A DNA stretch of 64,000 bases from Chiloscyllium plagiosum (taxonomy: Eukaryota), in contig NC_057719.1 of NCBI RefSeq assembly GCF_004010195.1, positions 45,440,658-45,504,657 on the forward strand, in the 5' to 3' direction. A program made the translations under genes and the position numbers. This document shows, in pieces, positions 2,964-58,077 of the stretch. The notes beneath the pieces were generated by a model, which saw only the letters and a program-made list of their open reading frames with translations, had not been told where the DNA came from and searched no databases. The stretch's first letter is position 1. Every line of letters begins with the position of its first letter.

Positions 2964-3156
2964 AATGATGAAATAAAGAACTGCAGATGCCAGAAATCTG
3001 AAACAAAAACGGAAATTGCTGGAGAAACTCTGTAGGTCCAGATGTATCTGTGGAGGGAGAGAGAACAGAATTAATGTTTCAAGCCCAGTGACTTGTCCTA
3101 AAGAAGTCATTTGACTTGAAATGTTGATGAGTTTCTCCAGCAATTTCTGATTTTGT
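2964..3156 (-). mobile_element. Penelope-like pLTR fold-back insertion (family B), degenerate
   Basis: AAACAAAAACGGAAATTGCTGGAGAAACTC is inverted-repeated as GAGTTTCTCCAGCAATTTCTGATTTTGTTT; TSD core TTGTGATAT at 2950-2958 and 3157-3165; similar to 8633-8760 and 44335-44570. Confidence 0.7.
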
Positions 3157-3327
3157 TTGTGATATAGTAACTTGGGGGATGAATATGAAATTTAGGAATT
3201 CTGTAACTTGTATTGAAGTTCTAAATTGGCAGGATTGGAAATCGTTTTGGATTGAGAAAGCTATTTAGGAGGGTGAGTATGAATATGTTGATTTAATAGA
3301 ATGGCATTGTTGGAATTTAGTCAAACT

Positions 3328-4144
3328 GTTGCATCAAGACACTGTTCAAAAGGGCCACAACAGACTGCAGTACACCAGAACTGCAAAAAGAGGAAGAACA
3401 CCTCTACAACGTATTCACCAAAAACGGATACCCCCGCAATTTCATCAACAGATGCCTAAGGGAAAGACAATGGAATGAGGACATGCCACAACCCAAAGGA
3501 CTAGCCACACTACCGTACATCAAAAACATTTCTGAACTGACAGCCAGACTACTGCGACCACTAGGACTCATAACAGCACACAAACCAACAGCCACTCTCA
3601 GACAACAACTCACCAGGACGAAGGATCTGATACCCGGCATGAGCAAAACCAATGTAGTGTACAAAATCCCATGAAAGGACTGCGCAAAACACTACATAGG
3701 ACAAACAGGAAGACAGCTAACAATCCGCATCCATGTACACCAACTAGCCACGAAACGACATGACCAGCTATCCTTAGTAGCCACACACTCAGATTACAAG
3801 CAACATGAGTTCGACTGGGACAACACTACTATTATAGGACAAGCCAAACAGAGAACAGCCAGGGAATTCCTAGAGGCATGGCACTTATCCACAGATTCAA
3901 TCAATAAGCACATTGACCTGGACCCAATATACCGACCACTGCGACAGCTGGAACTGACAACCGGAAGCAGCAGATACAAGTCACTATAAATGCCGGAGGA
4001 AAGATCACAGAAGCGCTTCACAGGAGGCTCCCAAGCACTGAGGATGTCACCTAGACAGGGGACGAAACATCTGCAACACAAATTCCCAGCTCGGCGAACA
4101 GAACCACAACAACAAGCACCCGAGCTACAAATCTTCTCACAAAC
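3328..4144 (+). mobile_element. Penelope-like element (Poseidon-type), 5'-truncated: RT thumb, GIY-YIG endonuclease, 3' pLTR with hammerhead
   Basis: Reads ...FTKNGYP...LPYIKNISE...NVVYKIP*KDCAKHYIGQTGR..IRIHVH...REFLEAWH (GIY-YIG); 11 bp TSD TTAGTCAAACT at 3317-3327 and 4145-4155. Confidence 0.92.
4035..4074 (+). ncRNA. Minimal hammerhead ribozyme motif (PLE family D)
   Basis: GCA-CTGAGGA-T-GTC(A)CCT-AGAC-AGG(G)GAC-GAAACATC-TGC: stem I GCA/TGC, core CUGANGA and GAAA, stem II present. Confidence 0.75.
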
Positions 4145-4224
4145 TTAGTCAAACTAAATCAAGTAACATAATTGATACAAATTCTGCAATCAGACAGAAC
4201 TCTTCTTGGACAGGATTGGGTTTG

Positions 4225-4510
4225 GAGATCTGAGGAACATTCAGGGCCCATGGCATGAATTCATTACTGGGTGTCCTGACTTCAAACATCACCTGTGGAA
4301 TTTTACTTCAGTTAACTGGAATAAATAGTAATTATTGGTGCTGGTGTCTATGTTACTACCAGATAGTTGTGAAACCCCGTGCGGTTCACTAGGGAAGGAA
4401 ATCTGCGGTATTCACTGCCTCTGATTAGAACCACAGCTATCTGAAACTGTTTAGGCCAGGCGACCAGTCAGCGCTGTGACCACACCCATATTCCCGTAAA
4501 TGAATAAAAA
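4225..4510 (+). mobile_element. Degenerate SINE/LINE-tail repeat
   Basis: Ends ...CACCCATATTCCCGTAAATGAATAAAAA; related inverted copies at ~33940-34570 and ~48110-48380. Confidence 0.45.
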
Positions 4511-4786: not shown

Positions 4787-5245
4787 GTGAGCAGAGCTGG
4801 GCATATCGGACTGGGACGGGACGGGCTGAGCTGGGTGAGGCTAGGTTGGGTCGGAATAGCCGGAGCTGGGACAAACTGTACTGACCTGGGTCAGGGTGAG
4901 CTGGTTAGGACAGGCTGGGTTAGGTTAGGAGAGAGAGAGAAAGAGACTGGGCAGAGCTGGGTCAGGGTAGACTTGGTTAGGAGTGTCTGGGCAGAGCTGG
5001 GTCGGAGAGATTGGGTTAAAAGAGACTGGGCTGAGCTGGGTCAAGGTAAACTGGGCTGAGCTGGGTAGGGGTAGACCAGGGCTTTTGTCCGAAACGTCGA
5101 TTTTCCTGCTCCTCGGATGCTGCCTGAACTGCTGTGCTTTACCAGCACCACTCTAATCCAGAATCTGGTTTCTGCAGTCATTGTTTTTACCTAGGTTAGG
5201 ACAGGCTGGATTAGGTTGGGAGAGACGGGGCTGAGCTGGGTCTGA
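4787..5245 (+). repeat. Degenerate G-rich pentamer array (GAGCT/GGGCT/GGGTC/AGGTT) upstream of PTGDR
   Basis: Recurrent GGGCTGAGCTGGGT, GGCAGAGCTGGGTC and GGTTAGGACAGGCTGG units with strong G skew. Confidence 0.75.
5078..5191 (+). mobile_element. Penelope pLTR fragment (family A) lacking the CTGATGA half of the hammerhead
   Basis: AGGGCTTTTGTCCGAAACGTCGATTTTCCTGCTCCTCGGATGCTGCCTG...CCAGAATCTGGTTT matches the copy at 27202-27484. Confidence 0.8.
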
Positions 5246-5404: not shown

Positions 5405-6181
5405 ATGGGATCTTGTGAAAATATCCACAATGTCCAAAAGGACAGCAAAGTAGTGACCAGCATCTTGCTGTTCAGCACCGGACTGCTCGGTAACACCATC
5501 GCCCTGGCCATTCTGGGCAAACACAAGTGGGACAGCAAAAAGGTGTCCGTCTTTTACATCCTCGTCACCGGCCTGGTGCTGACTGACCTCTTCGGAAAGT
5601 GCCTCATTAGTCCAGTGGTGTTCGCTTCTTACGCCTCAAACCTCACCTTGAAAGCTATGGGGAGTAACAACACCCTGTGTAACTACTTCTCCTTCTCCAT
5701 GTCCTTCTTCGGCTTATCCTCAATGTTTATCCTGTTCGCCATGGCCCTGGAGTGCTGGCTGTCCATAAGCCACCCGTTCTTTTATCAGGAACACTTCACC
5801 AAGCGCCTGGCAGTCCTCATTTTGCCGGTGGTTTACATTTGCTGCCTACTGTTCTGCTCAATGCCCCTGCTGGGAGTTGGGAGCACAAAGCAGTACTGCC
5901 CGGGTACTTGGTGCTTCTTTAACATGAATAAACCGAACTCGCCTTTTTCAGTGCTGTACGCCACCCTCATGGCCGCTCTCATCGTCGCTGTGATACTCTG
6001 TAACAGTTCCGTTGCTATTAACTTGACCAAAATGTACCGGAGACAAAGGCGGATGAGCAATCCCAACCTGAGCGTGGTTAATCGCTCCCGCCGGCAGTTC
6101 AGTCACTCTGAGGAGATGGAGAATCTCATCCTCTTGGTTCTCATGAGTATCATCTTTCTCATTTGCTCCCTGCCCCTCACG
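5405..6181 (+). CDS. PTGDR: Prostaglandin D2 receptor DP1, coding exon 1 (N-terminus to TM6)
   Basis: ATG at 5405 (GCGATGG). Motifs LFSTGLLGN, TDLFGKCLISP (TM2 Lys typical of DP1), MALECWLS (ECW replaces DRY as in DP1), HPFFY, QYCPGTWCF, CSLPLT. Donor ACG|GTAAGA at 6181/6182 is the conserved prostanoid-receptor intron position at the end of TM6. Confidence 0.93.
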
Positions 6182-6532
6182 GTAAGATCACCTCATTTTC
6201 TGTTTTGTTTTAGTGCGGTTTACTTGTAAAATAAAACACCGTCAAGCGAACAAAAAACTTAACGAGCGAGCTACACAGCAGACCCAGCGGAGCGCACGTT
6301 TTTATAAACGCAACATATTCGCAATTTCAAATGGCGCGAAACTTGGAAAAAAGCGAGGGCGATTGTAACAGACTTCACACTGGCGAAGGCTCGGACTCCA
6401 CGCAGATTTTAGAGGTTCATGCTCATGTTGGTAGATAAGTTATGTAGTAGAATGTAACATTGTCTGCAAGAAAAAAGTATTTTGAAGGTGACAAGATCAT
6501 TTAACTTGCATCCGTGGCTTTGTAGATGGACA

Positions 6533-6640
6533 TGATGAGTTGGTGCCGGTGTTGGAATGGGGTGGACAAAGTTAAAAATGACACAACGCCCAGGTTATCG
6601 TCCAACAGGTTTATTTGGAAGAACTAGCTTTAGGAGCGAA
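6533..6640 (-). mobile_element. Penelope pLTR 3' fragment (family C)
   Basis: GCCGGTGTTGG...ACAAAGTTAAAAATGACACAAC...TCCAACAGGTTTATTTGGAAGAACTAGCTTT matches 57807-57930 and 35316-35395. Confidence 0.8.
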
Positions 6641-6836: not shown

Positions 6837-6954
6837 GGAGAGAGTGAGGACTGCAGATGCTAGAGATCAGAGTCTAAAAGTGTGGCCGCTGAAAAAGCAC
6901 AGCCGGTCAGGCGGCATCCGAGCTCGTCTCAGTCTGCTTTTCCAGCGCCACACG
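6837..6954 (-). mobile_element. Penelope pLTR mini fold-back insertion (family A)
   Basis: 13 bp TSD GTCACAGGTATTA at 6824-6836 and 6955-6967; internal inverted arms GTGTGGCCGCTGAAAAAGCA / TGCTTTTCCAGCGCCACAC. Confidence 0.85.
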
Positions 6955-8632: not shown

Positions 8633-9145
8633 AATAAAAACTGAGGTTGCTGGAGATCTGAAATAAAAACAGAGCATGCTGGAGAAACTTGGGTTTGGCA
8701 GCATCTGTGGAGAGAAAAACAGTTTACATTTCGAGTCCAGTGAATCTTCATCAGAACTGAAGCAGATGGGGAATGGTGGCATTTATTCTGATGACGGTGG
8801 TTGGTGGAGCCTGGGGTTGCTGGTATTGGGCAGCATGGGGAAAGGCATGAGTCGAACATATGGAGATGATGCCCAGAAAGAGGGAGCAAAAAGAAAATGA
8901 GTTACTGATAAGCTAGGAGAGAGACAAGTGCTGAATGGCTGCTAATGGGAAGTGTGAATAGTTGAAAATGGGTTGGCTGTGTTGGGAGTAATCCATACAG
9001 AGCAAGACCTGGAGGAAGGTGTTCATGCTCTGAAGTTGTTAACACAATGTTCAGTTCTGAGGGCTGTAAGATACCTAGTTGGAAGATGAGGTGTTGTTCC
9101 TCCTGATTGCATTGAGCTTTGCTGGAGCACTACAACAGTCAGAAA
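8633..9145 (-). mobile_element. Penelope-like element 3' end (Neptune-type ORF C-terminus plus pLTR, family B) with hammerhead at ~8720-8760
   Basis: Minus strand encodes CSSKAQCNQEEQHLIFQLGILQPSELNI; hammerhead reads CAGTT-CTGATGA-A-GATT..ACTC-GAAATGTA-AACTG with a 5 bp stem I. Confidence 0.8.
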
Positions 9146-21346: not shown

Positions 21347-23507
21347 AGACTGCTTTAGTCTAATTTTTTTATTGTCTTGTCCTTTGATTTGTCCAATTAC
21401 AGAAAGGCCTATCAAGTAAGACATGAGTGACAAAACCCAATAGCCTAACAAAAAAACCTTTAATGTTATGAATGAAACTTTTCCTATTGGAACTGGAGGA
21501 GAGAAACCTAATATGGCGATTAAATTATATCCTTGTTGCACATCACTTGGAAATTGCAAGATATGTTTTCTGATAGGTTTACGTGCTTAACGCGTGTATG
21601 TTTGTTACCATCAAGTGCATCTAACTGCTGTCCAGAATGCACTGTTGAGGGCCTACATTTGTCTTTAATACATAGAGTCATTCTAAGTTGATTGATATTT
21701 TTTAGGTCAGTCTGAATTTCAAATATAAATGGCACTCTGGACTAAGCTCCTTCTCACTATGATTCATCTGTAGACAAAATTGAAGCTCTAGCCTGCTTTC
21801 AATTCTTAAAGCAGCTACTGTACTTGGAACTCTGTAGTGATGGGAGACTCACAGGAGGACAATGGAAAATTTTAGATATATGTCCTGAAAGCATCCCTAA
21901 AGAGGTCAAAAATTCCACAAACCTATCAAAATGTAATTCATTTGAGAAGGCACTGTGCACTTTGAAAGACTTCATCAAGATCATAGGTAGGCAAAGTCGA
22001 GACACTCAACAGGGTGCACAGATCTCCCAATAACCCAACCCTTCATGAACCACCTGTCCTGCAAATGCGAAATCTGCAGATTGTGTATTAATCTTTTCAA
22101 TCATCTCAGAACCCATCAAACTGGAATGGAAGCAAGTCATCCTGAATACTGAGGGACTGTCTAAGAGATAATCGTTTCATATGCAGTTTTACTGGGGACT
22201 AAAAGCAATGCTAATCCAGAAAATCAAAATTTCGGCAAAATATCTCAGCCCTTTACTGCCCTAGCAAGGCTTGATTCTGGCTACAAAGAGGGTAAAATTC
22301 AGTATGGGGTTGTTCTGTCACAAGAGCTTCAATTTTTACTGGTCACAGAGAGACATTTGGAAATCTTAAATCTTCTCAATGTTCAAATAGTTACACTAGT
22401 GATGTTACTATTGCATCCACATAATATAGATGAATATTTTAATTATTCATTTTGACGAATCTATGTGCTTGACATTCTGTGAAATAGTAAGTGCGCTCTT
22501 TACATGTGGTTTAAAGTCCTTGTTATATCTTATACTTACGTACGTAATTCTAGAGAATATTTGTTGTTATTATGTAGGCACTATATTTACATATTTGTTT
22601 CTTTCTCCAATTTCCATGCCTTTATCTTTCCTTTCTGAAGGCTTTGTGTCATACAAGGGTAAACTTGTGTGTCAATAACTCTCCAATATTTTAACAAAGT
22701 GGCCAGTCTTCATGTGCCCTCATCAATAGGTTCTGGGGGAGGGATTGTAGCAGAAGGAAATCTGTCTTAGTGTCATAGAATTATACAGATGTACAGTACG
22801 GAAACAAACCCTTCAATCCAACTCATCCATGCTGACCAGATATTCTAAATTAATCTGATTCCATTTGCCAGCACGTGGCCCAAATCCCTCTAAACCCTTC
22901 CTATTCATATATCCAACCAGATGTCTTTTAAATGTTGTAATTATACCAGCCTCCATCAGTTCCTCTGGCAGCTCATTCCATACATGCACCAACATTTGCA
23001 CGAAAAAGTTGCCCCTTAGGTCCCTTTCAAATCTTTCCCCTCTCAACCTAAACTTATGCCCTCTAGTTCTGGACTCCCCCACCCCAGGGAAAAGACCTTG
23101 TCTATTTACTCTATCCATGCCTCTCACGATTTCATAAACCTCTGTAAGGTCACCCCTCAGCCTCTTATGCTGCAGGGAAAACAGCCCCAGCCTCTTCAGC
23201 CTCTCCCGATAGATCAAACCCTCCAGCACTGGCAACATCCTTGTAAATCTTTTCTGAATCCTTTCAAGTTTCACAACATCCTTCCTATAAGAGGGAGTGC
23301 AGAATTGCAAGCAATATTTCAAAAGTGGCCTAATCAATATCCTGTACAGCTGCAACATGACCTCCCAACTCCTATACTCAATGTTGTGACCAATGAAGGC
23401 AAGCATACTAAACACTTTCTTCACTATCCTATCTACCTTTGACTCTACTTTCAAGGAACTATGAAGCTGCACTCCCAGGTCTCTTTGTTCAGCAACACTT
23501 CCTAGTA

Positions 23508-23720
23508 GCTGGAAATGTGTTGCTGGAAAAGCGCAGCAGGTCATGCAGCATCTAGGGAACAGGAGAATCGACGTTTCGGGCATTAGCCCTTCTTCAGGAA
23601 GGGCTAATGCCCGAAACGTCGATTCTCCTGTTCCCTAGATGCTGCCTGACCTGCTGCACTTTTCCAGCAACACATTTCCAGCTCTGATCTCCAGCATCTG
23701 CAGACCTCACTTTCTCCTCA
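23508..23720 (+). mobile_element. Penelope pLTR palindromic insertion (family A)
   Basis: 14 bp TSD AACACTTCCTAGTA at 23494-23507 and 23721-23734; 86 bp inverted arms 23507-23592 and 23598-23683; minus strand has CTGAAGA-A-GGGC-TAAT-GCCC-GAAACGTC. Confidence 0.92.
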
Positions 23721-24499
23721 AACACTTCCTAGTACCTTATCATTAAGTGTGATTTGCCTTTCCCAAATGTAACACCTCACATTTATCTAAATTAAACTCC
23801 ATCTGCCACTCCTTGGCCCATCGGCCCATCTGATAAAGATTTTGTTGTACTCTGAGGTAACCTTCTTCTCTGTCCATTACACCTCCAATTTTGGTGTCAC
23901 CTGCAAACTAACTAATTATACTTCCTAGGTTCACATCCAAATTATTTATATAAATGCCAAAAATCAGTGGATCCAGCACCAATCATTGTGGCGCTCCACT
24001 GGTGACAGGCCTCCAGCCTGAAACCAACCCTCCACTACTCTCTATGGCTAGTTCTTCCAGTATTCCATATGATCTAACCTTGCTCACCAGTCTATGATTA
24101 GGAACCTGGTCGAAAGCCTTACTGATGTCCATATAGATCACATCCACTACTCTGCCCCCATCAATTCTCTTTGTTACTTCTTCAAAAAACTCAATTAAGT
24201 TTGTGAGACATGATTTCCCACATACAAAGCCATGTTGACTATCCCTAATCAGTCCTTACCTTTCCAAATACATGGAAATCCTGTCCCTCAGGATTCCCTC
24301 CAACAACTTGTCCACCACTGATGTCAGACGCACTGGTCCAAAGTTCCCTGGCTTTTCCTTACCACATAGTGGCACCACATTAGCCAACCTCTAGTATTCC
24401 AGCACCTCACCTGTGATAATTGATGATCCAAATATCACAGCAAAAAGCCCATCAATCACTTTCCTAGCTTCCCATAGAGTTTTAGGGTACATCTGATCA

Positions 24500-24646
24500 T
24501 GGTCGAGAGTGGGGTGCTTTCCTGATGAAGAGCTCTTGTCTGAAACGGCGATTCTCTTGCTCCTTGGATGCTGCCTGACCTGTTGTGCACTTCCAGCACC
24601 TCATTCATGACTCTGATCTCCAGCATCTGCAGTCCTCACTTTCTCC
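24500..24646 (+). mobile_element. Penelope pLTR insertion (family A) with degenerate hammerhead
   Basis: 12 bp TSD TACATCTGATCA at 24488-24499 and 24647-24658; CTGATGAAGAGCTCTTGTCTGAAAC. Confidence 0.88.
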
Positions 24647-26561: not shown

Positions 26562-26868
26562 TGAGTCGAAAGTGTGGTGTTGGAAAAGCACAGCAGGTCA
26601 GGCAGCATCTGAGGAGCAGGACAATCGATGTTTCGGGCATAAGCCCTTCATCAGGAATGAGACTGGGAGCCGAAGGGGTGGTGAGATAAATGGGTGGGGG
26701 TGGGGCTGGGGGGAAGGTAGTTGAGAAAGCGATAAGTAGATAAGGGTGAGGGAGAAGGTGATAAGTCGGAGAGGACGGAGGAGCAGATAGATGGGACAGG
26801 TCAGGAGGGTGGTGCCAAATTGGTGGATTGGGACTGGGATAATGTGGGGGGACAGGAAATGAGGAGGG
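26562..26868 (-). mobile_element. Penelope pLTR (family A) with intact-core hammerhead at 26624-26658
   Basis: Minus strand reads ATTC-CTGATGA-A-GGGC-TTAT-GCCC-GAAACATC-GATT. Confidence 0.85.
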
Positions 26869-26871
26869 CAG

Positions 26872-27850
26872 AGTACAGCAAGCTGGAATTATATAACACT
26901 CTCTGGAGTATACTGCCAGACACCACCAGAGTGTTTCAAACAATATGAAGCTTGTCTTCAGCAGGCCTATTGTCTGCTCCACCATGGACCTGATGGAAGA
27001 ACATGCTGCATAGTAACGACACTCTGCCTCAGTCAGGATATTGTACAATGGAGTCATGGCCGCAGAGGGTATGTCTTGTCTCCCAGTAACTATCCTTGTA
27101 AGACTTTGAACTCTCACACACAGCAGGAACATGAGAACTCTCAGGGATGTAGGATTGGTGATAGTTCCCAGGGTGCTAAGGCAAGCCTCTAAGAATTGGT
27201 AGGTAAAAACAATGACTGCAGATGCTGGAAACCAGATTCTGGATTAGTGGGGCTGGAAAAGCACAGCAGTTCAGGCAGTATCCGAGGAGCAGTAAAATCG
27301 ATGTTTCGGGCAAAAGCCCTTCATCAGGAATACAGGCAGAGTGCCTGAAGGGTGGAGAGATAAGTAAGAGGAGGGTGGGGGTGAGGAGAAAGTAGCATAG
27401 AGTACAATAGGTGAGTGGGGGAAGGGATGAAGGTGATAGGTCAGGGAGGAGGGTGGAGTGGATAGGTGGAAAAGAAGATAGCCGGAATTGGTACCAACGA
27501 TTACAGATTGATGAAATGGAACCCCTTTCCATTGATGAACTCAACTGTATTATAACATGGCCCTCTCAGAGAGATGTTTGAGCATTGGATGGCACACTGC
27601 ACCCAAGGAAAGCTAGCCTTTTTACCGAAACCCATTGCCTGGGCCACAGCACTGACCTTGTCATGGAGATTGAAATATAGTGGTGTGGTCTAGCACAAAT
27701 GATCCTGGTCATAGTCTTGATATATTGAGAGTAGTGCCTGAGATGTCCCACACACGTCCCCACTGGCCCCCTGAAACAGTCAGTCACATAAAAATTCAAA
27801 GTCACTGTTACTTTTATGGCCACAGGGATACGATGATCATTCTAGATTTT
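26872..27850 (-). mobile_element. PIF/Harbinger transposase relic, interrupted by a PLE pLTR
   Basis: Minus strand AIKVTVTLNFY, FINGKGFH and TEAECRYYAACSSIRSMVEQTIGLLKT resemble HARBI1-type DDE segments. Confidence 0.75.
27202..27484 (-). mobile_element. Penelope pLTR (family A) with intact-core hammerhead at 27297-27331
   Basis: TSD GAATTGGTA at 27193-27201 and 27485-27493; CTGATGA-A-GGGC-TTTT-GCCC-GAAACATC. Confidence 0.87.
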
Positions 27851-27994
27851 TACTCCCACCTTTCCTGGTCCATTGGGTTTACTGTGGATATTGATAACCC
27901 AAAACAATTCTAACAACAGAATATACCTAATGCTCTTTATTAAAGCAAAGTACAATACAAAAATAAAGTAAAACAACAATGCATCATAACCTTC

Positions 27995-28022
27995 ATCACC
28001 TGATGAAGGAGCATCGCTCCAA
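27995..28022 (+). mobile_element. Start of a family C PLE hammerhead running into an assembly gap
   Basis: CAC-CTGATGA-A-GGAGC-ATC-GCTCC followed by N. Confidence 0.65.
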
Positions 28023-35314: not shown

Positions 35315-37166
35315 GTAAAAATCACACAACATGAGGTCCAACAGGTTTATTTGTAAGTACTAGCTTTCAGAGCACTGCTCCTTCATCAGGTAACTAGAGG
35401 GGCAGGATCACAAGACACAGAATTTATAGCAAAAGATCAATGTCATGCAATTAAAATGATATATTAAGCAAACCTAGACTGCTGTTAAGTCTTCCATCTT
35501 TTAGAATGGTTGCAGGTTTCAGTTCATTAATATGTAAATCCCAGAACTTCTTCTAAATCATATTCTTGAGATAACTTAAGGTTTTATATTTTAAAAAAGT
35601 GACATCTCAGCTTAGACAATGTATTAAAGGTGTGAGGTTAGAATCTGTCTGTATCCCAATCTTGAGTCAGACTCAAGTAGGAGTCTTGAGTCAGACTCAA
35701 CTCCAAATTGGGAGTTTATAAAAAGTCACATGGATTAACTGCCTGCATTGGCAGCTTGCAGGTTGTGTGCTTTTTGAGCAAAAATAGAATGCATCTGCAA
35801 ATACAAATTCACCCTATAGAATTGTGTGTGTGTGTGTGTACATGTGAGGGAGAGAGATTGTGAGTGTGTGCTTGTGAGTGTGAGTGCACATGAGAGATTG
35901 TGTGTTTGCGTGGGTGTGGGGGGTATATGTGTGTGTGTGTCTGAGAGAGCGTGCGTATGAGGGAGGGTCTGCGTGAGTGTGTAAGTATGTAAGAGTGTGT
36001 GTGTGTATACAATGTAGTGAGGTCACCTATAATGTAACGGTGGTATCCATGTGGATGCCATCATTACATGTGGGGATATTACCCACCATGCAAATGGCAG
36101 GTACTCATGTGACTTGGCCAACTTGTCTATCTCATACACTATAGGAAAGGATGCCCAAGGCATGTTATATTGGCGAGACCATGCAGAGGCTACGATAATA
36201 GATGAATGGACACCATGCAACAATCACCAGACAGGAATGTTCCCTCCCAGTCGGTGAACGCTTCAGCGGTCAGGGACGTTTGGCCTCAGATCTTTGGGGG
36301 ACAGGCAACAATGCAAAGTGGCCAAGCAGAGGCTTATAGCCGAGTTCAGTACCCATGAGGACGGCCTTAACTGGGACTTTGGGTTTATGTCACACTACAG
36401 TTGACCCCACTACTCTGTACACTTTCTCACACACACACAAGCAGACATACGCATACACATTCTTACATACTCACTCACTCATGCAGACCCTCTCTCGTAC
36501 ATTCGCTCTCTCAAACTCACACATATACACACCCCCATACTCACACCCACGCACAAGTTTGTACGCTGTCACACTCACGCACACACTCTACCAAGCATGC
36601 ACACACACACACTCTCTCATGTACACTCACTCTCACACTCATGTGCACACGACTATGCACACACACACACAAGGCGATGGGGTGAATTTGCATTTACAGA
36701 GCTGTATTTGCAGATACATTTTAGCACACAACCTGCAGGCAGTCAATGCAGACAGTCAATCTATATTTTATAAATTCCTGCTTTGGAGATAGAACCAGTC
36801 TGACGTAAGATTGGGATACAGACAGATTCTAACCGCACACCTTTAATACATTGTCTGAGCTGAGATGTCACTATTTTTTATAAAACCTTAAGTTATCTTG
36901 AGAATGTAACTTTTAAAAAGTTCTGGGATTTATATATTAATGAACTGAAGCCTGCAACCCATTCTAAAAGATAGAAGACTTAACAGCAATCTAGCCGAAT
37001 ATATCTTTTTAATTGCATAACACTGTGATCTTATGATCCTGCCCCATAGTTACCAGATGTAGGAGCAGTGTCCTGAAAGCTAGTAGTTCCAAATAAACCT
37101 GTTGGGACTATAACCTGGTGGTGTGTGATTTTTAACTTTGTCCAACACTGGCACATCCAGATCACA
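35315..37166 (+). mobile_element. Penelope-like element (Neptune-type, family C): inverted pLTR, GIY-YIG remnant, pLTR
   Basis: TSD TCTATAGA(T/C)AGTG at 35302-35314 and 37167-37179; ~700 bp inverted arms (35316-~36030 and ~36390-37134) with CA/TG-rich tracts; centre encodes GRYSCDLAN..YIGETMQRL...SLPVGERFSGQG...HEDGLN. Confidence 0.9.
35357..35393 (-). ncRNA. Minimal hammerhead ribozyme motif (family C), core intact
   Basis: TAC-CTGATGA-A-GGAGC-AGT-GCTCT-GAAAGCTA-GTA with stem I TAC/GTA. Confidence 0.75.
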
Positions 37167-44334: not shown

Positions 44335-44570
44335 AAAAACAGACATTGCTGGAAAAGCTCAGCAGGTCTGGCAGTATCTGCGGAGGGAAATCAGAGTGAA
44401 TGCTTCCAGTCAGAGTGACCCATCCTCAGAACTGTTCTGAGCTAAGAAATCTCGACCCAAAATGTTAACTATGATTTCTTCCCACAAATGCTGCCAAACC
44501 TGCTGATCTATTCCAGCAAAGTCTGTTTTTGTTTCTGACTCACAGCATCGGCAGTTCTTTCGGGTTTTTT
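44335..44570 (+). mobile_element. Penelope pLTR fold-back insertion (family B-related)
   Basis: AAAAACAGACATTGCTGGAA...TTCCAGCAAAGTCTGTTTTT inverted arms centred on TCAGAACTGTTCTGA. Confidence 0.75.
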
Positions 44571-45621: not shown

Positions 45622-45935
45622 AGAGGTAATGGTGATAGGTCGGAGAGGAGGGCGGAGCAGATAGGTGGGAAGAAAGATTGTCAGGTGGAACAGGTCCTGA
45701 GGATGGTGCTGTGCTGGAATGTTGGAGCTGGGGTAAGATGGGGGAGGGCAAATGAGGAAACTGGTGAAGTCCACATTGATGCCATGGGGTTGAAGGGTTC
45801 CAAGGTGGAAGATGAGGCACCTCATCTTCCACCTTGGATTTTCCTGCTCCTTGGATGCTGCCTGACCTGCTGTCTTTTCCAGCACTACTCTAATCTTGAC
45901 TCTAATCTCCAGCATCTGCAGTACCCACTTTCGCC
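45622..45935. mobile_element. Penelope (family A) rearranged piece: inverted ORF end plus pLTR tail
   Basis: Minus strand CLIFHLGTLQPHGINVDFTSF (Neptune-type C-terminus); local palindrome CCAAGGTGGAAGATGAG-GCAC-CTCATCTTCCACCTTGG; then + strand pLTR end. Confidence 0.78.
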
Positions 45936-46445
45936 TATCTCTTTATCTGAAACTATGCCCTGTGCCCCCTCAGCGCTTAGCCTGCCAAGCCCCTTAACAA
46001 TCCTATATGTTTCAATGAGATCACCTCTCATTCTTTTAAACTCCAGTGAGTATAGTCCCAATCTGTTTAACCTTTGTTAATAAGATAATCACTCTACACC
46101 AGGAACATCCTAGTGAACCTTCTCTATGTCCAATGAAATTACACATTTCTTTAAAAAGGGATCTAAACCTGTTCACAGATGTGGTCTCACCAGTATCTTG
46201 ATAGTTGCAGCAAGATTTCCCAACACTTATATTGCAATCCCTTTGAAACAAGGGTCAAGATTCCATTGCCTTCCTGATTACTTGCTGTACCTATGTTCTA
46301 ACTTCCTGTGTTTTGTGTACAAGTACCCCAAATCCCTTTGTGTAGCAGCTTACTGCAGTTTTTCTGTATTTAACTAATATTCTGCTCTTTTGTTCTCCCT
46401 TCCAAATGAACAACTTCACATTTTCCCACATTATCCTCTGCCAAT

Positions 46446-46539
46446 ATTCTTGATGAACGGCTTACACCCGAAGCATCGATTCTCCTGCTCCTCAGATGCT
46501 GCCTGACCTGCTGTGCTTTTCCAGACCCATCCTTTTTGA
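46446..46539 (+). mobile_element. Penelope pLTR fragment (family A) with degenerate hammerhead
   Basis: TSD CTCTGCCAAT at 46436-46445 and 46540-46549. Confidence 0.8.
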
Positions 46540-48479: not shown

Positions 48480-50560
48480 AGGTTTTGTTTTAAATCATGG
48501 GGTATGGGTGACACTGGCTGGACTAGCATTTATTGTCCTTTCCAGTTCTGTTTAGGAATGGTTGGGAGCTTCCTTCTTGAACCACTCCAGTCTATTGGAT
48601 GTAGGTAGACTCACTATGTCGTTAAGGTTGGAGTTCCAGGAATTTGGTTCAATCACATTGAGGAAACAATAATATACAGTATTTCCAAGTCAGTTCATCT
48701 ACACTGCTTCTACTAAGTGTCAGTGGAGGGAGTGAAGGTTTTGGATGTGGTGCCAAGCAAGCAGACCACTTTATCCTGGATGATATCAAGCTCCTTGAGC
48801 ATTGTCGGAGCTGCACCCATCCAGGCAAGTGGGGAGCAGTCTATCATATTTCTGCCTTGGTGTTCTGTACATAAGAGGCATGCTTGTGAGAATCAGGAAA
48901 TTAGTTACTTGCTGCAAAACTTCCCAGCCTCTGACCTGCTTTTGGAACCACAGTATTCATATGACTAATCCAGTTCAATTTCTGGTCAGTGGTAATCACA
49001 AGCATGATTCAAAAATGATGACACCATTGACTGTCAAAGGGTGATTGTCAGATTCTCTCTTACTGAGGATCATAATTGACCTACTTGTGTGGTGCAAATA
49101 TTATTTGCTACTTGTCAACTCCAGCCTGAATATTGTTTAGGTTTTGCTGCATTTGGACATAGATTGCTTCAGTCTCTGATGAGTTGTGAAAAGTTTCTTA
49201 ATATTGCATAATCATCAATGAACATCCCCGCTTCTATCCTTTTGTTGGAGGCAAGTCATTGATGAAGCAGCTAAAGATGGTTTGACCAAGGGTACTATCC
49301 TGAGGAATTCCTGCAGAAGCATCCTGGAACTGAGAAGACTGATCTCCAGCAATTGTAATCATCTACCATCTTCTTTTGAGCATGGTGTGACCAGCAGAGC
49401 ATTTTCTCCCAATTCCTATTGACTCCAGTTTTGCTAGGACTTCTGGATACTAAACTCAGTCAAATTGGCCGTGATATCAAGGACAGTCACTCTCAGCACC
49501 CCTCTGGAATTCAGCTCTTTTGTCTGTGCTTCTTAAATAAGTTTGTAGTGGGGTGAGGAGCTGAGTGGTCTTAGGCATCAAACTTGGTGCCAGTGAGCAA
49601 ATTATTGCTAACCAAATGCTCCTTGATAAAACTGTCATAGAGCCATAGAGTCATACAGCATGGAAATACACCCTTTAGTCCAACCAGTCCATGCTGACCA
49701 TAATCCCAAAGCAAGCTAGTCCCATTTGCCTGCGTTGAGCCCATATCCCTCCAAACCTTTCCTATTCATGCACATGACGCGTTCTATCGTTTTACTGATA
49801 ATCAAGAGTAGATAGATGGGGCAGTAATTGGTGAATTTGTCCTGCTTTGTGTGTTAAAGGAATCTGGGTAATTTTGCACATCATCAAATGGATACCAGTA
49901 CTGGAGGAGCAAATTATTGCAGATGCTGGAATCTGTACTGAAAACACAAAATGCTGATGAAGAATCATCTACTCGAAACGTTAGCTTGCTCTTTCACCAT
50001 GGATGCTGCCTGGCCCACTGTGATCTCCAGCATATTTTGTTTTCAGTATAGATGCCAGTACTGGAACAGCTTGGCTGGGTAAACATAAAGCTCCTGGACT
50101 ACAAGTCGTCAGTATTGCCAAAATGTTGTCAGGGTCCATACCCTTTGCAATGTCTGATAGCTTCAACTGTTTCTTGATATCATGTGGAGTGAATTGTTTG
50201 AGCTAAAGACAGGCATCTATGATGATGGAGACCTCTGCAGGAGGCTGAGCTGGATCGTCCACTCAGCACTTATGGCTAAATATTGTTGCAAATACTTCAG
50301 CCTTATCGCTGATATGCTGGTCTCCCTCATGACGGAGGCTGGGGATATTTGTAGTCTCTTCCTCCAGTGAGTTGTTTAATTTTTCACCAACATAAATGGC
50401 TGATGGTGAGAGGGCTGCAGAGCTAAGATCTAGTTTGTTGATTATGAGATCACTTAACTCTGTCATTTGCTGCTTATGCTGTTTAGCATGCAGGTATTCC
50501 TGCTTTGTAGCATCACCAGGTTAATACCTTATTATTAGGTATGTTTGGTTCTGCAAGCAT
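48480..50560 (-). mobile_element. Old LINE fragments (CR1/L2-clade), interrupted by a CR1 3' end (~49640-49772) and a PLE insertion
   Basis: Minus strand SDKAEVFATIFSHKC and KGMDPDNI; 3' end shared with the element at 62475-62960. Confidence 0.6.
49906..50050. mobile_element. Penelope pLTR fold-back insertion (family B) with + strand hammerhead at ~49952-49985
   Basis: 15 bp TSD GAT(A/G)CCAGTACTGGA at 49891-49905 and 50051-50065; CTGATGA-A-GAAT-CATCT-ACTC-GAAACGTT. Confidence 0.85.
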
Positions 50561-52770: not shown

Positions 52771-53780
52771 ATGGCAATGCGATTCTCTGACAGGGATTTG
52801 GAAGTCCTGCTGGAGGGGTTGGTGCAGAAGAAAATCACCATCTTCCCAGATGATTGGCAGAGGAGACCGCAATACCAGACCCTGGCAGCCTAGTTTGGGT
52901 CAGCACTTGGGTCAGTGCCATCTCCATGGTGCAAAGGAATGGCCAGCAGTGCCACAAAAAGGTTGATAAGTTTCTCTCCTCTACCACAGTAAGTGTAACA
53001 CTTCTCTTTAACTCACACACGGTTTATGTCTGGTTCTGCACCTATCTCCCACCAAGATTCACATTCTGCCACTTTCAGTAATGCAGCATACTTCCTTACT
53101 CGCTCTCATTTCCCTGACCCCCAGCCTCCCACACTGCTAACCCAACACGGTTGCTGAGTTGCCTCCTCACTCACTCAAGATACCTCATCAACACTAACAG
53201 CTGTTTGATCCACTTACAGCTCACATGATCCCTGCCTCCTCCACCTTCAAATCCAAGCCACCCAACACCCGGAGGAGGAATGCCTCATCTTCTGCCTTGG
53301 GACCCTTCAAGCACACAGGATCAACATCGATTTCACCAGTTTCCTCATCTTCCCTCCCCCCACTTCATCCAATATCCAACTCCCAACCTGGCACTGCTGT
53401 CTTGAACTGTCCCACCTGTCCGTCTTCCTTCCCACCTATGCACCCCACCCTTCTCTCCGACCTGTCACCATCAACCCCACCTGCATCTACCTATTGCCTT
53501 CCCAGCTACCTTCCCTCCAACCCCAACCTACTATTTATCTCTCAGCCCCCTTCCCCACCCCCTCATTCCTGATGAAAGGCTTATGAAACATCAATTCTCT
53601 TGCTCCTCAGATGCTGCCTGACCTGTTGATCCCTCCCTTTCTTCATTACAGGAGAAAACAGTGCACATTAGGGCAAAAAAAGCCTGGACAAGAGGAAGGT
53701 ACCTGACATCAAACTCCTCACCCCATATGAGGAGAGAATGCTCTCCCTTGCTGGAGGAAATTGGGACCACTCCCACAGGG
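52771..53780 (+). pseudogene. Harbinger-associated Myb/SANT-like gene relic with an intron
   Basis: MRFSDRDLEVLLEGL..IFP..RRP..W..VSA.S.V.RN..QC.KK; donor GTAAGT at 52989; acceptor TTACAG at 53651 then EKTVHIRA; disrupted by a stop and frameshift. Confidence 0.65.
53234..53626 (+). mobile_element. Penelope (family A) ORF end plus pLTR inside the Myb-relic intron
   Basis: EEECLIFCLGTLQAHRINIDFTSF; CATTCCTGATGAAAGGCTTATGAAACATC; TGATCCCT repeated at both flanks. Confidence 0.8.
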
Positions 53781-53940: not shown

Positions 53941-54478
53941 GTCTTGCAGTACCAGTGGGATGTCCACAACACCTGGGGAGAGATGCCTTGGTGAGCCAAA
54001 CACTGTCTCCTTGACTTCTGAGGACAAGATTATTGGGACCACTGAAGATACATTGGCAGGTTGCTTCCTGCAGCTCCCAGCAGCTCAGACAATGACACCT
54101 TGTGGTAACATCAGCTTTAGAACATTTGGGTGCACAAGCTGGTCAGCCCCTCAATGCAACAGCTGGCCAAAGAAAAAATGATCCAGGCTGCTGGCTCTGT
54201 GAGGACAGCTGGAGACCAGGCTCCTGCTCATGGCCATGTAGGAGAGGACCCAGTGGGTCAGCAACCAGGGACTTCATCTACATACACAGGGAGGGACAGG
54301 GGCAGCAGACAGGGATGTGGGACACAATAGCCCTCATTGCACAGAAACCACCTGCACATGGTGGAATGAGTTCAGCTTTATTATGGGGCCCCATGCTGGG
54401 TCTCAGGCATGCAACTGTCTGGCTGCCTCCAGGGGCAGATTGGCAGTTGCCATGGTAAACCAAGTCCAGTACTCTCAG

Positions 54479-54705
54479 AAAACAAATAATGCTAGAGATC
54501 ACAGAGGGTCAGACCACATCCGTGGAGAGAGAGAGCAAGCTAGCATGTTAAGTTTAGACAATTCTTCATCTGAGCTTTACATGAAGAGTCAGCTAGACTC
54601 AAAATGTCAGCTTGCTCTGTCTCCACAGCTGCTGCCTGACCCGCTATGATTTTCAGAATTTTTGTGTTTTCAGTACAGACTCCAACATCAGCAGCCATTT
54701 GGTCC
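54479..54705 (+). mobile_element. Penelope pLTR fold-back insertion (family B)
   Basis: 14 bp TSD TCCAGT(A/C)CTCTCAG at 54465-54478 and 54706-54719; imperfect inverted arms around TCTTCATC..ATGAAGA. Confidence 0.82.
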
Positions 54706-56317
54706 TCCAGTCCTCTCAGTTTCTGTTAGAGAGCACACACACACTCGCATTTCATCACCCTAGCCCTTGGTTCTTAGGACCAAAGACATAATGATGGGAG
54801 GGGTTGGGAACATGCTGTGCACTCCAGGTGCCCCTTCCTCAGAAGGAGACAGGGAAATGCCAGAAGATACACAAAGGGCACTTCAGAGTTGGCCAGCCTT
54901 TCACCTGTAGCCTGTCCACCTCCTTCTGACCCTTGGAAATTCAAGCTAAAGCCTTTAGAATTCTTGGACCATTCAGATATAGATTCCCCCCACCACCTCC
55001 CAACGATGGTCATCCCATCACACCTCCTGGACTAACAGGTTATAGTCATAGAGTCATAGAGATGTACAGAATGGAAACAGACCCTTTGGTCCAATTTGTT
55101 CATGCCAAACAGATATCCTAAATTCATCTAGCCCCATTTGCCAAAATTTGGTCCATATCCCTCCAAACCCTTCTTATTCATATCCCATCCAGATGCCTTT
55201 TAAATGCTATAATTGTATCAGCCTCCATCACCTCCTGTGGCAGCTCATTCCATAGCCGTACCACCCTCTCTTTGAAAACGTTGCACCTTAGGTCTCTTTT
55301 ATATCTTTCCCCTCGCCCTAAACCTATGCCCTCTAGTTCTGGACTCACCTACTCCAGGGAAAATACCTTGTCTATTTATCATATCCATGCCCCTCATGAT
55401 GTTATAAACCTCTATCAGGTTTCCCCTCAGCCTCCGACGCTCCAGGGAAAATAGTCCCAGCCTATACAGCCTTTCCCTATAGTTCAAGTCCTCAAACCCT
55501 GGCATCATCCTTGTAAATCTTTTCTGAACCCTTTCAAATTTCACAACATCCTTCCAATAGGAAGGAGACCAGAACTGCACGCAATATTCTAAAAATGGCC
55601 TAACCAATGTCTTGTACAGCTGCAACATGACTTCCCAGCTCCTATACGCAGTGCTCTAACCAATAAAGGAAAGCATACCAAACATCTTCTTCACTCTCCT
55701 ATCTACCTGCGACTCTACTTTCAGGGAGCTTTGAACCTGCACTCCAAGGTCTCTTTGTTCAGTAACATACCCCAGGACCTTACCATTCAGAGTATAAGTC
55801 CTGCTAAGTTTTGCTTTCCCAAAATGCAGCATCTGGCATTTATCTAAATTAAACTCCATCTGCCACTCCTCAGCCCAATGGCACATCTAATCAAGATCCC
55901 ATTGTACTCTGAGGTAATCTTCTTCACTGTCCATTACACCTCCAATGTTGGTGTCATCTGCGAACTTACTAATTATACCTCCTATGTTCACATCCAAATC
56001 ATTTATATAAATATTGAAAAGTTGTGGACTCAGCACTGATCCTTATGGTACTCCACTGGTCACAGGCCTCCAGTCTGAAAAGCAACTCTCCACCACCACC
56101 CTCTGTCTTCTACCTTCAAGCCAGTTCTGTATCCAAATGGCTAGTTCTCCCTGTATTCCATGAGATCTAACCCTGCTAACTAGTCTCCCATGGAGAACTT
56201 TGTTGAATGCCTTACTGAAGTCAATATAGGTCACATTCACCGCTCTGCCCTCATCAATCCTCTTTGTTACTTCTTCAAAAAACCCAATCAAGTTCATGAG
56301 ACATGATTTCCTCCATA

Positions 56318-57655
56318 TAAAGGCATTTGATAAGGTTCCCCATGGTAGGCTTATGTGGAAAGTCAGGAGGCATGGGATAGAGGGAAATTTGGCCAATTGG
56401 ATAGAAAACTGGCTAACCGGTCGACGGCAGAGAGTGGTGGTAGATGGTAAATATTCAGCCTGGAGCCCAGTTACAAGTGGAGTTCCGCAGGGATCAGTTC
56501 TGGGTCCTCTGCTGTTTGTAATTTTGATTAATGACTTAGATGAGGGAGTCGAAGGGTGGGTCAGTAAATTTGCAGATGATACGAAGATAGGTGGAGTTGT
56601 GGACAGTGAGGAGGGCTGTTGTCGGCTGCAGAGGGACTTAGATATGATGCAGAGCTGGGCTGAGGAGTGGCAGATGGAGTTCAACCCTGCCAAGTGTGAG
56701 GTTGTCCATTTTGGAAGAACAAATAAGAATGCGGAATACAGGGTTAATGGTAGGGTTCTTAGTCAGGTGGAGGAACAGAGGGATCTTGGGGTCTATGTAC
56801 ATAGATCTTTGAAGGTTGCCACTCAGGTGGATAGAGTTTGTAAGAAGGCCTATGGAGTATTATCGTTCATTAGCAGAGAGATTGAATTCNNNNNNNNNNN
56901 NNNNNNNNNNNNNNNNNNNNNNNNNNNNNNNNNNNNNNNNNNNNNNNNNNNNNNNNNNNNNNNNNNNNNNNNNNNNNNNNNNNNNNNNNNNNNNNNNNNN
57001 NNNNNNNNNNNNNNNNNNNNNNNNNNNNNNNNNNNNNNNNNNNNNNNNNNNNNNNNNNNNNNNNNNNNNNNNNNNNNNNNNNNNNNNNNNNNNNNNNNNN
57101 NNNNNNNNNNNNNNNNNNNNNNNNNNNNNNNNNNNNNNNNNNNNNNNNNNNNNNNNNNNNNNNNNNNNNNNNNNNNNNNNNNNNNNNNNNNNNNNNNNNN
57201 NNNNNNNNNNNNNNNNNNNNNNNNNNNNNNNNNNNNNNNNNNNNNNNNNNNNNNNNNNNNNNNNNNNNNNNNNNNNNNNNNNNNNNNNNNNNNNNNNNNA
57301 AGGATGAGGGGTGACTTGATGGAGGTTTATAAGATGATCAGAGGAATAGATAGAGTAGACAGTCAGAAACTTTTTCTCCGGGTACAACAGAGTGTTACAA
57401 GGGGACATAAATTTAAGGTGAAGGGTGGAAGGTATAGGGGAGATGTCAGGGGTGGGTTCTTTACCCAGAGAGTGGTGGGGGCATGGAATGCGCTGCCCGT
57501 GGGAGTGGTAGAGTCGGAATCATTGGCGACCTTTAAGCGGCATTTGGATAGGTACATGGATGGGTACTTAATCTAGGTTAGAAGTTCGGCACAACATCGT
57601 GGGCCGAAGGGCCTGTTCTGTGCTGTATTGTTCTATGTTCTATGTTCTATGTTCT
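56318..57655 (+). mobile_element. Young CR1 LINE (open RT frame on both sides of an N gap) with (GTTCTAT)n tail
   Basis: [24 protein letters not shown] uninterrupted; TAAAG repeated at both junctions (56318-56322 and 57655-57659). Confidence 0.93.
56890..57299. other. Assembly gap (410 N)
   Basis: Run of N. Confidence 1.
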
Positions 57656-57806
57656 AAAGCCATGCTGACTATCACTAATCAGTCCTTGCCTTTCAAATTA
57701 CATGTAAATCCTGTCCCTCAGGATTCCCTTCAACAACTTGCACACCACCGATGTCAGGCTCACCGGTCTATAGTTCCCTAACTTTTCCTTACTGTTCTTT
57801 TACTGA

Positions 57807-58077
57807 TTTGGAGATGCCGGTGTTGGACGGGGGCATACAAAGTTAAAAATCACACAACACCAGGTTATAGTCCAACAGGTTTAATTGGAAGCACACTAGC
57901 TTTCGGAGCGTCGCTCCTTCATTAGGTGGTAGTGGAGGGCTCAATCCTAACACACAGAATTTATACCAAAATTTACAGTGTGATGTAACTGAAATTATAC
58001 ATTGAAAAATTGATTGTCTGTTAAGCCTTTCATCTGTTAGAATACCGTGAAGTGAAACGATGTGTGATTTTTAACTT
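57807..58077 (-). mobile_element. Penelope pLTR insertion (family C) with a short inverted arm; hammerhead core mutated (CTAATGA)
   Basis: TSD TGTTCTTTT(A/G)CTGA at 57793-57806 and 58078-58091; ACAAAGTTAAAAATCACACA inverted as TGTGTGATTTTTAACTTTGT. Confidence 0.87.

What the first reader, a model, noticed from the sequence alone, without database searches (positions are those of the whole stretch)
2964..58077. Dense population of hammerhead-ribozyme-bearing, fold-back Penelope mini-insertions
Seen: about 18 short insertions (2964, 5078, 6533, 6837, 8633, 23508, 24500, 26562, 27202, 27995, 35315, 44335, 45622, 46446, 49906, 53234, 54479, 57807, plus the 3328 element) share CTGANGA-stem-GAAA motifs or the adjoining pLTR sequence. 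Many are self-complementary and flanked by 9-15 bp TSDs. Established: PLEs carry minimal hammerheads in their pLTRs and often have an inverted 5' pLTR. Inference: here the main insertion product is an ORF-less ribozyme hairpin of 100-300 bp, roughly one per 3-4 kb. These are either extremely truncated PLE products or a non-autonomous, retrozyme-like class in sharks. I cannot tell from the window whether these shark families are already catalogued.
Basis: partly seen in the sequence, partly recalled or inferred. Interest (0 to 1): 0.72.

Follow-up and report, generated by a model that had tools for sequence, protein, structure and literature searches.

The report
Truncated Penelope retroelement ends, shark
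These short inserts are cut-down, often mirror-imaged tail ends of five families of Penelope-type jumping genes, mostly with decayed ribozymes; this is a known pattern, though many copies start right at the front edge of the ribozyme.

Summary
Real, but mostly a known phenomenon. All 19 named sites are Penelope-like element (PLE) insertions, one per 3.3 kb, in five families. 12 of 18 testable sites have target-site duplications, and 11 of 19 have two inverted arms. In 9 of 9 scorable cases one arm has the 'tail' and the other lacks it, the published PLE insertion signature.

They are not a separate ORF-less class. The '35315' copy is the left arm of a 1.85-kb insertion holding a Neptune-type GIY-YIG end, and six more named copies also run far upstream. 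Every junction differs, short copies are closest to long ones (6 of 6), and no tandem arrays exist, so these are not retrozymes. Only 5 of 19 keep a complete minimal hammerhead, and 2 keep the palindromic stem III.

One feature I did not find in print: 9 of 18 insertions begin within -5..+7 of the hammerhead core, not at its cut site. The best guess (about 45%) is run-off cDNA reaching an RNA 5' end at that point. This scan has already reported the same elements and clustering on other pieces of this genome.

The parts
2959..3156 (.). Family B two-armed insertion: tail-bearing arm on -, short internally deleted arm on +; decayed hammerhead; TSD 2950-2958/3157-3165
3328..4141 (+). Family E, Penelope/Poseidon-type 5'-truncated PLE: ORF end (GIY-YIG region 3675-3989), minimal hammerhead with C3 at 4038; TSD 3314-3327/4142-4155
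5078..5193 (+). Family A (subfamily A2) single arm starting at +7, tail end, no core; no clear TSD (sits in a tandem repeat)
6540..6638 (-). Family D single arm starting in stem II (+17), tail end; no significant TSD
6837..6954 (.). Family A two-armed insertion, both arms downstream of the hammerhead (about +41); TSD 6824-6836/6955-6967
8633..9130 (-). Family B long copy: tail, decayed hammerhead, 3' UTR and ORF-end-like peptide near 9040-9129; far boundary and TSD not found
23507..23720 (.). Family A fold-back insertion, arms 98% complementary over 86 nt; left arm starts at -3 with an intact minimal hammerhead (C3 at 23597, - strand), right arm starts at +5 and has the tail; TSD 23494-23506/23721-23733; empty sites in two host-repeat paralogues
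24500..24646 (.). Family A: main arm (+) from -3 to tail, about 19-nt inverted short-end arm; TSD 24488-24499/24647-24658; host-repeat paralogue lacks the insert
26562..26870 (-). Family A long single arm (3' UTR, hammerhead C3 at 26654, short end); left junction shared with a second species label
27202..27484 (-). Family A2 long single arm (3' UTR, hammerhead C3 at 27327, tail); TSD 27193-27201/27485-27493; right junction shared with a second species label
27990..28022 (.). Family D fold-back at the hammerhead core (arms start at -3 and +1), cut by the assembly gap
35315..37166 (.). Family D 1.85-kb two-armed insertion: left arm (-) with intact hammerhead (C3 at 35389) and short end; right arm (+) with broken Neptune-type GIY-YIG end (36045-36407), CA-rich 3' UTR, decayed hammerhead and tail; TSD 35302-35314/37167-37179
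44335..44565 (.). Family B fold-back, arms start at -5 and about -3, both hammerheads decayed; no significant TSD
45622..45937 (.). Family A complex insertion: inverted ORF-end/3' UTR arm, 18-nt fold-back, then a right arm starting at the first base after the predicted cleavage site (+28) and running to the tail
46446..46539 (+). Family A single arm from about -4 to the short end; decayed hammerhead; TSD 46436-46445/46540-46549
49906..50050 (.). Family C two-armed insertion, non-nested arms (short-ended arm starts at 0, tail arm at about +73); TSD 49891-49905/50051-50065
53234..53626 (+). Family A long single arm: ORF-end-like peptide, 3' UTR, hammerhead with stem II deletion; TSD 53226-53233/53627-53634
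54479..54705 (.). Family C fold-back, arms start at -4 and +3, decayed hammerheads; TSD 54465-54478/54706-54719
57807..58077 (.). Family D: long tail-bearing arm (-) with one core mutation, 20-nt inverted short-end arm; TSD 57793-57806/58078-58091

Best explanation
These are ordinary insertion products of five endonuclease-bearing PLE families (D Neptune-type, E Poseidon-type, A/B/C related to each other), 5'-truncated to different degrees and made anew at each insertion. Shown in the sequence: TSDs, a shared hammerhead-plus-tail end module, long ORF-bearing members, one tail end plus one short end per two-armed copy, and unique junctions. Inferred from the published PAc biochemistry: the RT-GIY-YIG protein nicks both target strands with a 9-17 bp stagger, and each 3' end primes cDNA at one of two internal RNA start sites about 30-40 nt apart, downstream of the hammerhead. 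The two cDNAs are joined head to head, in the copies I could read by eye over 1-3 nt of shared sequence. Inferred, about 45%: the many copies that begin at -5..+7 are run-off products from the upstream pLTR start sites to an RNA 5' end at the front of hammerhead stem I, like an integrated strong-stop cDNA. The template was uncleaved, so ribozyme cleavage did not set these ends. Most genomic hammerheads are now dead.
For: TSDs at 12 of 18 and empty sites in paralogous host repeats. The D piece is 79% identical to a catshark protein with a CX4CXXC linker, and its relatives give weak GIY-YIG hits below Pfam's cut-off. Four of the E piece's longer relatives carry RVT_1, three also GIY-YIG, and none of the four checked has the zinc linker. 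One long plus one short end in 9 of 9, p=0.002 if the ends were independent at 50:50; this matches Craig 2021 Fig. 2 and A. vaga Pen2a. PAc extends both strands, starts at two internal sites that bound the tail, gives shorter products from 5'-shortened RNA, and inserts without HHR cleavage. 9 of 18 begin at -5..+7, p=2e-5 at an assumed 0.1 per copy, and the cluster recurs in four families. All 6 opposite-strand joints among the 15 shown in public contigs have a side at -3..-7. Only 1 of 28 arms (45622 right) starts at the cleavage site. In 4 of 9 two-armed copies neither arm is contained in the other, which simple cDNA fold-back cannot make.
Against: No RNA 5' end was seen: the one RNA run that mapped showed no begin/end pile-up and both strands about equally, though a poly(A) single-cell library is a poor test. 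In D. virilis Penelope the start site lies about 120 nt upstream of the hammerhead (46 nt plus a 75-nt intron). The public-contig joints may hide up to 40 unshown letters, and subfamilies diverge just upstream of -4, so they place the hot spot only roughly. The -5..+7 window was chosen after seeing the data, and five arm starts were read by eye. Non-nested arms could arise later by deletion or flipping of a palindrome centre. The A/B ORF-end peptide aligns to the endonuclease end only weakly (hhalign E=0.045, probability 1.2%), and no ORF was seen for C.
Confidence: 0.8

Rival explanations
1. Same PLE origin, but the hairpins come from self-priming of an antisense RNA (or of a single cDNA) whose end folds back at the small TTC...GAA palindrome around the hammerhead core; the endonuclease then trims one arm to give the tail asymmetry (model of Arkhipova 2013 and Craig 2021).
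For: Arkhipova 2013 reads junction palindromes as self-priming on an antisense template. 23508 has exactly a 3-bp stem with a 5-nt loop at its tip, and 27995, 6837 and 44335 have palindromic tips.
Against: It does not explain the single-armed copies (46446, 5078) or the copies with a distant second arm (24500, 49906) that start at the same place without a hairpin tip. PAc primes on nicked target DNA with sense RNA in vitro.
Confidence: 0.2
2. The hot spot is an RT stall or drop-off at the folded (possibly dimeric) hammerhead in a long template, not an RNA end.
For: The position tracks the ribozyme in four families with different upstream sequences. Upstream sequence does continue in many genomic copies (loose end at 27481 in 93 and 155 contigs).
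Against: A structural block is expected at the 3' base of the fold (about +28 to +32), where RT first meets it (inference); observed ends lie on the far side. The predicted monomer folds are weak, about -8 kcal/mol.
Confidence: 0.2
3. A separate non-autonomous, SINE- or retrozyme-like class of about 125-nt hammerhead-headed elements with their own master copies, mobilised by PLE proteins.
For: Clustered 5' ends; very high abundance of the end module, with depth falling upstream of the hammerhead (about 2-4 fold on 27202). Non-autonomous PLE derivatives exist (MRC1; non-LTR retrozymes, one chondrichthyan included).
Against: No tandem HHR units; boundaries are not at cleavage sites; all junctions differ; 6 of 6 short family-A arms are nearest to a long copy, and 5078 is 93% identical to 27202; the same boundary in four families would need four independent masters.
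Confidence: 0.1
4. Miniature inverted-repeat DNA transposons (MITEs) that happen to contain hammerhead-like words.
For: Short, self-complementary and TSD-flanked.
Against: TSD length varies (9-17 bp), the two ends are asymmetric, 8 of 19 copies are single-armed, and the module is joined to RT-family endonuclease sequence.
Confidence: 0.02

Closest known systems
Complex insertions of EN+ PLEs: 5'-truncated copy, adjacent inverted copy, tail at one end, TSD (Craig 2021 PMC8557442 Fig. 2 text; Arkhipova 2013 PMC3846280, Pen2a_Av)
   Same: Head-to-head inverted arms, 30-40 nt tail at one end only, 8-10 bp TSDs there and 9-17 bp here, small palindromes or overlaps at the junction.
   Different: Here most units are shrunk to 95-320 bp and occur every 3.3 kb; the passages I read do not describe a pile-up of 5' ends at the hammerhead.
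[quoted passage not shown]
   Same: Short helix I, an extra base between A9 and 10.1, G10.1-C11.1, palindromic 15.2-16.2; mostly solo motifs attributed to truncated PLEs, and dual motifs 100-700 bp apart on opposite strands in Schistosoma; thousands per genome in coelacanth and Xenopus.
   Different: No shark is named in the Results section or in the two supplements I could search (one file not searchable); helix II is 3-5 bp here; activity untested.
PAc, Poseidon element of Anolis carolinensis (Frangieh 2024, PMC11167929)
   Same: Two adjacent internal RT start sites bounding the tail, both target strands extended, uncleaved RNA as the main template.
   Different: Different clade for family D (Neptune-type); in vitro system; it does not describe mini fold-back insertions in the main text I read.
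Non-LTR retrozymes (Li, Clavereau, Pollet 2026, 10.64898/2026.07.22.740005)
   Same: pLTR-derived, type I hammerhead, protein-free, dispersed monomers described.
   Different: Defined by tandem repeats with at least two consecutive complete hammerheads; none here. The copies are head-to-head or single, with the PLE tail signature.

Membership tests
EN+ Penelope-like elements | C-terminal GIY-YIG endonuclease sequence upstream of the terminal repeat | tested here: met
   Families D and E: (most Pfam GIY-YIG scores are below the curated cut-off; assignment rests on the RT+GIY-YIG relatives)
EN+ Penelope-like elements | Same endonuclease link for families A, B and C | tested here: inconclusive
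   Shared ORF-end peptide in A and B aligns in register to the endonuclease end at E=0.045 only; database searches blank; no ORF seen for C, which is tied to A/B by DNA profile
EN+ Penelope-like elements | Telomerase-like RT domain in the same ORF | not testable with these tools
   No copy in the window reaches the RT core and no genome is held; relatives of E carry RVT_1
EN+ Penelope-like elements | 5' truncation, adjacent inverted copy, tail at one end, variable TSD | tested here: met
   11 of 19 two-armed, 9 of 9 with one tail, TSD at 12 of 18
EN+ Penelope-like elements | Partial tandem forming direct pLTRs around a full ORF | not testable with these tools
   No full-length copy in the window; collection scans found no outside locus
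Neptune clade (family D) | CX2-5CXXC zinc-finger linker before the endonuclease | tested here: met
   Present in the 79%-identical relative P0001; the window copy is truncated just after it. Nematis shares this linker and was not excluded by a tree
Penelope/Poseidon clade (family E) | RT + GIY-YIG without the zinc linker | tested here: met
   No CX2-5CXXC in the four relatives checked or in the window translation; no RT tree built
Minimal type I hammerhead of PLEs | CUGANGA, extra base, stem II with G-C closing pair, GAAA, palindromic pair, UH, short stem I | tested here: met
   5 full matches vs 0 in 12 controls; 2 with intact palindrome; stems I and II differ in sequence but pair in each family (family comparison by eye)
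Minimal type I hammerhead of PLEs | Self-cleavage as dimer or with protein help | not testable with these tools
   Needs an in vitro assay; no read ends piled at the site in one poly(A) run, a weak test
Non-LTR retrozymes | Tandem repeat with two or more consecutive complete hammerheads | tested here: not met
   None of 10 TRF rows contains a hammerhead unit; definition
Non-LTR retrozymes | Circular RNA monomers bounded by cleavage sites | tested here: inconclusive
   Only 1 of 28 arms starts at the cleavage site; circular RNA not testable
Independent non-autonomous lineage (SINE-like) | Shared internal junction and own clade | tested here: not met
   All junctions differ; 629 joints; short copies nearest to long ones 6 of 6 (small sample, distance only)
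Catalogued Dfam/Repbase shark Penelope families | Match to an existing consensus | not testable with these tools
   No repeat library is on hand; whale shark papers report Penelope-like expansion without family detail in the passages read

The most novel reading that the evidence does not exclude
In sharks the dominant PLE product is an integrated 'strong-stop' cDNA. The transcript starts at the front edge of the hammerhead, the protein primes both target strands from the two internal sites in the upstream terminal repeat, and about 125-nt ribozyme-headed copies, single or head to head, are laid down in very large numbers. The genomic fossils would then map the PLE transcription start and show two-strand priming in vivo, across four families.
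Probability: 0.4. Interest if true: 0.55.

Novelty: new member of a known kind. Interest (0 to 1): 0.3.

Why it matters
As a class this is ordinary: truncated and inverted PLE ends with minimal hammerheads are described in flatworms, rotifers, fish and amphibians, and Penelope expansion is reported for the whale shark. The value lies in the numbers. A genome with such a dense record of insertions lets one map where reverse transcription starts and stops, and so test open points of the PLE cycle: how the inverted arm and tail form, and whether the hammerhead ever cuts the template. The data here say it usually does not. They also warn that most genomic 'ribozyme' hits in sharks are decayed relics.

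Tried and rejected
No genome is held for this window, so there is no genome-wide census.

A family A/B motif found nothing in metagenome or prokaryote genome contigs. Rfam gave no hammerhead hit, only miRNA-like chance matches to the 23508 hairpin.

Pfam found no significant family in the four window ORF pieces. Homologue searches for the A and B ORF ends were blank: one search was in the wrong frame, one search had no hit, one search gave no alignment, and one search scored below 0.9.

Sequencing-run search: no RNA holder listed. Run X22 laid 0 reads, so it is no test. The 26621 side of several joints was set aside as a probable artefact of a private base change in the reference at 26622. The 57-fold depth drop upstream of the hammerhead on 26562 was set aside because that upstream region is subfamily-specific. 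Summed contig depth is not a copy number.

A pair count across families was dropped because the alignment put families A and D out of register. The predicted dimer fold of 23508 paired through stem III but did not form the full ribozyme, and that of 35315 did not; neither is used as evidence.

MITE and retrozyme readings were rejected as set out under rivals. A spliced-RNA origin for the 5' cluster was considered, because the D. virilis intron ends at helix I, and not adopted: no shared upstream exon is seen on the short copies, and family A has no acceptor at that position (by eye).


Full report
OBSERVATION. All 19 named sites hold insertions with a shared end module. They sort into five families: A (5078, 6837, 23508, 24500, 26562, 27202, 45622, 46446, 53234), B (2964, 8633, 44335), C (49906, 54479), D (6533, 27995, 35315, 57807) and E (3328). 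Profiles built from A-D found no further insertion; the only addition was a right arm at 36961-37166. Density is one per 3.3 kb of non-N sequence and 10% of the window. The host is shark-like: the three named protein hits were all Scyliorhinus torazame.

HAMMERHEADS. A strict minimal type I descriptor gave 5 hits (C3 at 4038+, 23597-, 26654-, 27327-, 35389-) and none in 12 resampled controls. At one mismatch it gave 7 against a mean of 0.4. Only 23508 and 35315 keep the self-complementary pair needed for the dimeric stem III; the other three have a G-to-A change there, consistent with CpG decay (inference). Stems I and II differ in sequence between families yet pair in each (by eye). The design matches the min-HHR consensus of Cervera and de la Pena (PMC4209133; abstract, Results and Discussion read). 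So the motif is real at family level, but 14 of 19 copies are decayed, cut or lack it.

INSERTION MARKS. TSDs of 9-17 bp were found at 12 of 18 testable sites, each p<=0.02 against 400 random pairs; six had none and 27995 is cut by a gap. The 23508 insert sits in a host repeat whose paralogues at 16169-16180 and 625-636 hold one copy of the target, and a paralogue of the 24500 site lacks the insert. Contigs of a run under a second species label (22 differences in 569 bases) cross junctions of 26562, 27202 and 27995, so these three are shared and not recent.

NOT AN ORF-LESS CLASS. The '35315' site is the left arm of a 1,851-bp head-to-head insertion with a 13-bp TSD. Its right arm holds a broken endonuclease end, 79% identical to a 374-residue catshark protein with a CX4CXXC linker, the mark of Neptune/Nematis elements (PMC8557442, passages). 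The 3328 piece has 1,142 relatives at E<=0.001. Of 7 scanned, 4 carry RVT_1 and 3 of these also GIY-YIG; the 4 checked lack the linker, so it is Poseidon-type. 8633, 45622 and 53234 share an ORF-end-like peptide, whose link to the endonuclease end is weak (E=0.045). Seven of 18 A-D insertions extend well upstream of the hammerhead. In family A all 6 short arms have a long copy as nearest neighbour, and 5078 is 93% identical to 27202.

ARM ANATOMY. Eleven of 19 insertions have two arms, head to head. In all 9 scorable cases one arm ends at the long end (about +110 to +125 from C3) and the other some 25-40 nt earlier; 27995 (gap) and 45622 (left arm never reaches the module) were not scored. This is the 'inverted copy plus tail at one end' structure of PMC8557442 and PMC3846280 (passages, abstract of the latter). 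All 11 junctions differ. Laying public data on 26450-28020 gave 629 distinct joints, 15 shown, the best with 17 contigs; the tool warns that some were not counted. In four cases (23508, 44335, 49906, 54479) the tail-less arm reaches further 5' than the tail arm, so neither arm is a copy of the other, unless the centre was later deleted or flipped.

THE 5' CLUSTER. Nine of 18 insertions begin at -5..+7 of C3 (2964, 5078, 23508, 24500, 27995, 44335, 46446, 49906, 54479), 2 begin downstream and 7 far upstream. At an assumed 0.1 per copy p=2e-5, at 0.15 p=5e-4, with the window chosen after the fact (five arm starts read by eye). Only 1 of 28 arms starts at the predicted cleavage site, +28. All 6 opposite-strand joints among the 15 shown have one side at -3..-7 (49 contigs in X3, 54 in X16), but hidden letters and subfamily divergence blur this. 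Depth on 27202 falls about 2-4 fold upstream of the hammerhead in the two DNA runs and about 4 fold in the RNA run. Summed depth over the module is about 10 million against about 23 on unique flanks in X3: very abundant, though not a copy number. The RNA run X21 (3,224 reads laid) covered both strands about equally, 97% of reads ran on into other sequence, and no ends piled up; this fits passive read-through and is a weak test.

MECHANISM. Frangieh et al. (PMC11167929; parts 1-2 of 4 read, main text and start of Methods, plus passages) showed that a Poseidon protein cuts and extends both strands, starts at two internal RNA sites that bound the tail, makes shorter products from 5'-shortened RNA, and does not need hammerhead cleavage. 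Applied here (inference), two cDNAs primed from the two target ends at the two start sites give one tail end and one short end, and their meeting gives the head-to-head junction. If priming is in the upstream terminal repeat, the product ends at the RNA 5' end, which would explain a family-independent cluster at the ribozyme's front edge (about 45%). Against this, the D. virilis start site is about 120 nt further upstream (PMC2377424, passages), and I saw no RNA end. Rivals are antisense or cDNA self-priming (20%), stalling at the fold (20%) and independent short masters (10%).

COMPARISON. Cervera 2014 already reports mostly solo min-HHRs from truncated PLEs, and pairs 100-700 bp apart on opposite strands. 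Non-LTR retrozymes (10.64898/2026.07.22.740005; parts 1-3 of 5 read; supplements closed and may list the chondrichthyan families) require tandem units, absent here. Penelope-like expansion is reported for the whale shark (10.1101/443036 and PMC8455134, passages). PMC6155905 was seen as passages. Searches listed no paper on shark mini-insertions or on 5' ends clustering at the hammerhead; the library lacks most subscription journals, and Dfam and Repbase could not be checked. The labels 'CR1' for the host repeats and 'prostanoid receptor' for the gene are recalled and come from no call.

EARLIER SCAN NOTES. Notes on other pieces of this genome describe the same elements and the same cluster; 103 notes fit that look-up. 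My run-off reading was written down before I saw them. They are not independent support; one gave me the lead to PMC3846280.

VERDICT. Real, dense, explained as truncated and inverted PLE insertions; new members of a known kind, with one testable mechanistic detail. Interest 0.3.

Noticed in passing
window 5405-6183: First coding exon of a rhodopsin-family GPCR (7tm_1, E=2.4e-24; looks like a prostanoid receptor, name recalled). The 5078 insertion lies about 210 bp upstream of its ATG, inside a short GC-rich tandem repeat.
   Followed up: partly
window 49891-49905 and 54465-54478: Both family C target duplications contain the same 8-mer, CCAGTACT, which resembles the element's own short-end sequence; a possible target preference or primer-template microhomology (n=2).
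   Followed up: no
tail modules, e.g. window 23650-23670, 37120-37150, 44520-44545; and just upstream of the core at 8758-8775, 35390-35405: By eye, several of these stretches look like 3' splice sites (branch-point-like word, pyrimidine tract, AG). PLEs have 5' UTR introns; no spliced joint was listed in the RNA run on the one stretch laid.
   Followed up: no
window 35820-36010 and 36420-36670: The TG/CA-rich tracts are part of the family D 3' UTR, present in both arms of the 1.85-kb insertion, not independent microsatellites.
   Followed up: yes
window 45793-45843: An 18-nt fold-back in the ORF end followed by a jump to the first base after the predicted hammerhead cut site; the one arm that could derive from a cleaved RNA.
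   Followed up: partly
proteins P0002, P0004: Catshark gene models for septin 5a and IQ-domain protein K include a piece of the family D endonuclease, either exonised PLE sequence or annotation artefacts.
   Followed up: no
window 79-790, 10857-11950, 15470-16340, 22770-24900, 55040-56720 and others: Many fragments of one or more LINE-like host repeats (CR1-type, label recalled), 72-89% alike; 23508 and 24500 are inserted in one of them.
   Followed up: partly
window 28023-28522 and 56890-57299: Assembly gaps; the first begins inside the 27995 fold-back element, as expected if hairpins break assemblies.
   Followed up: no
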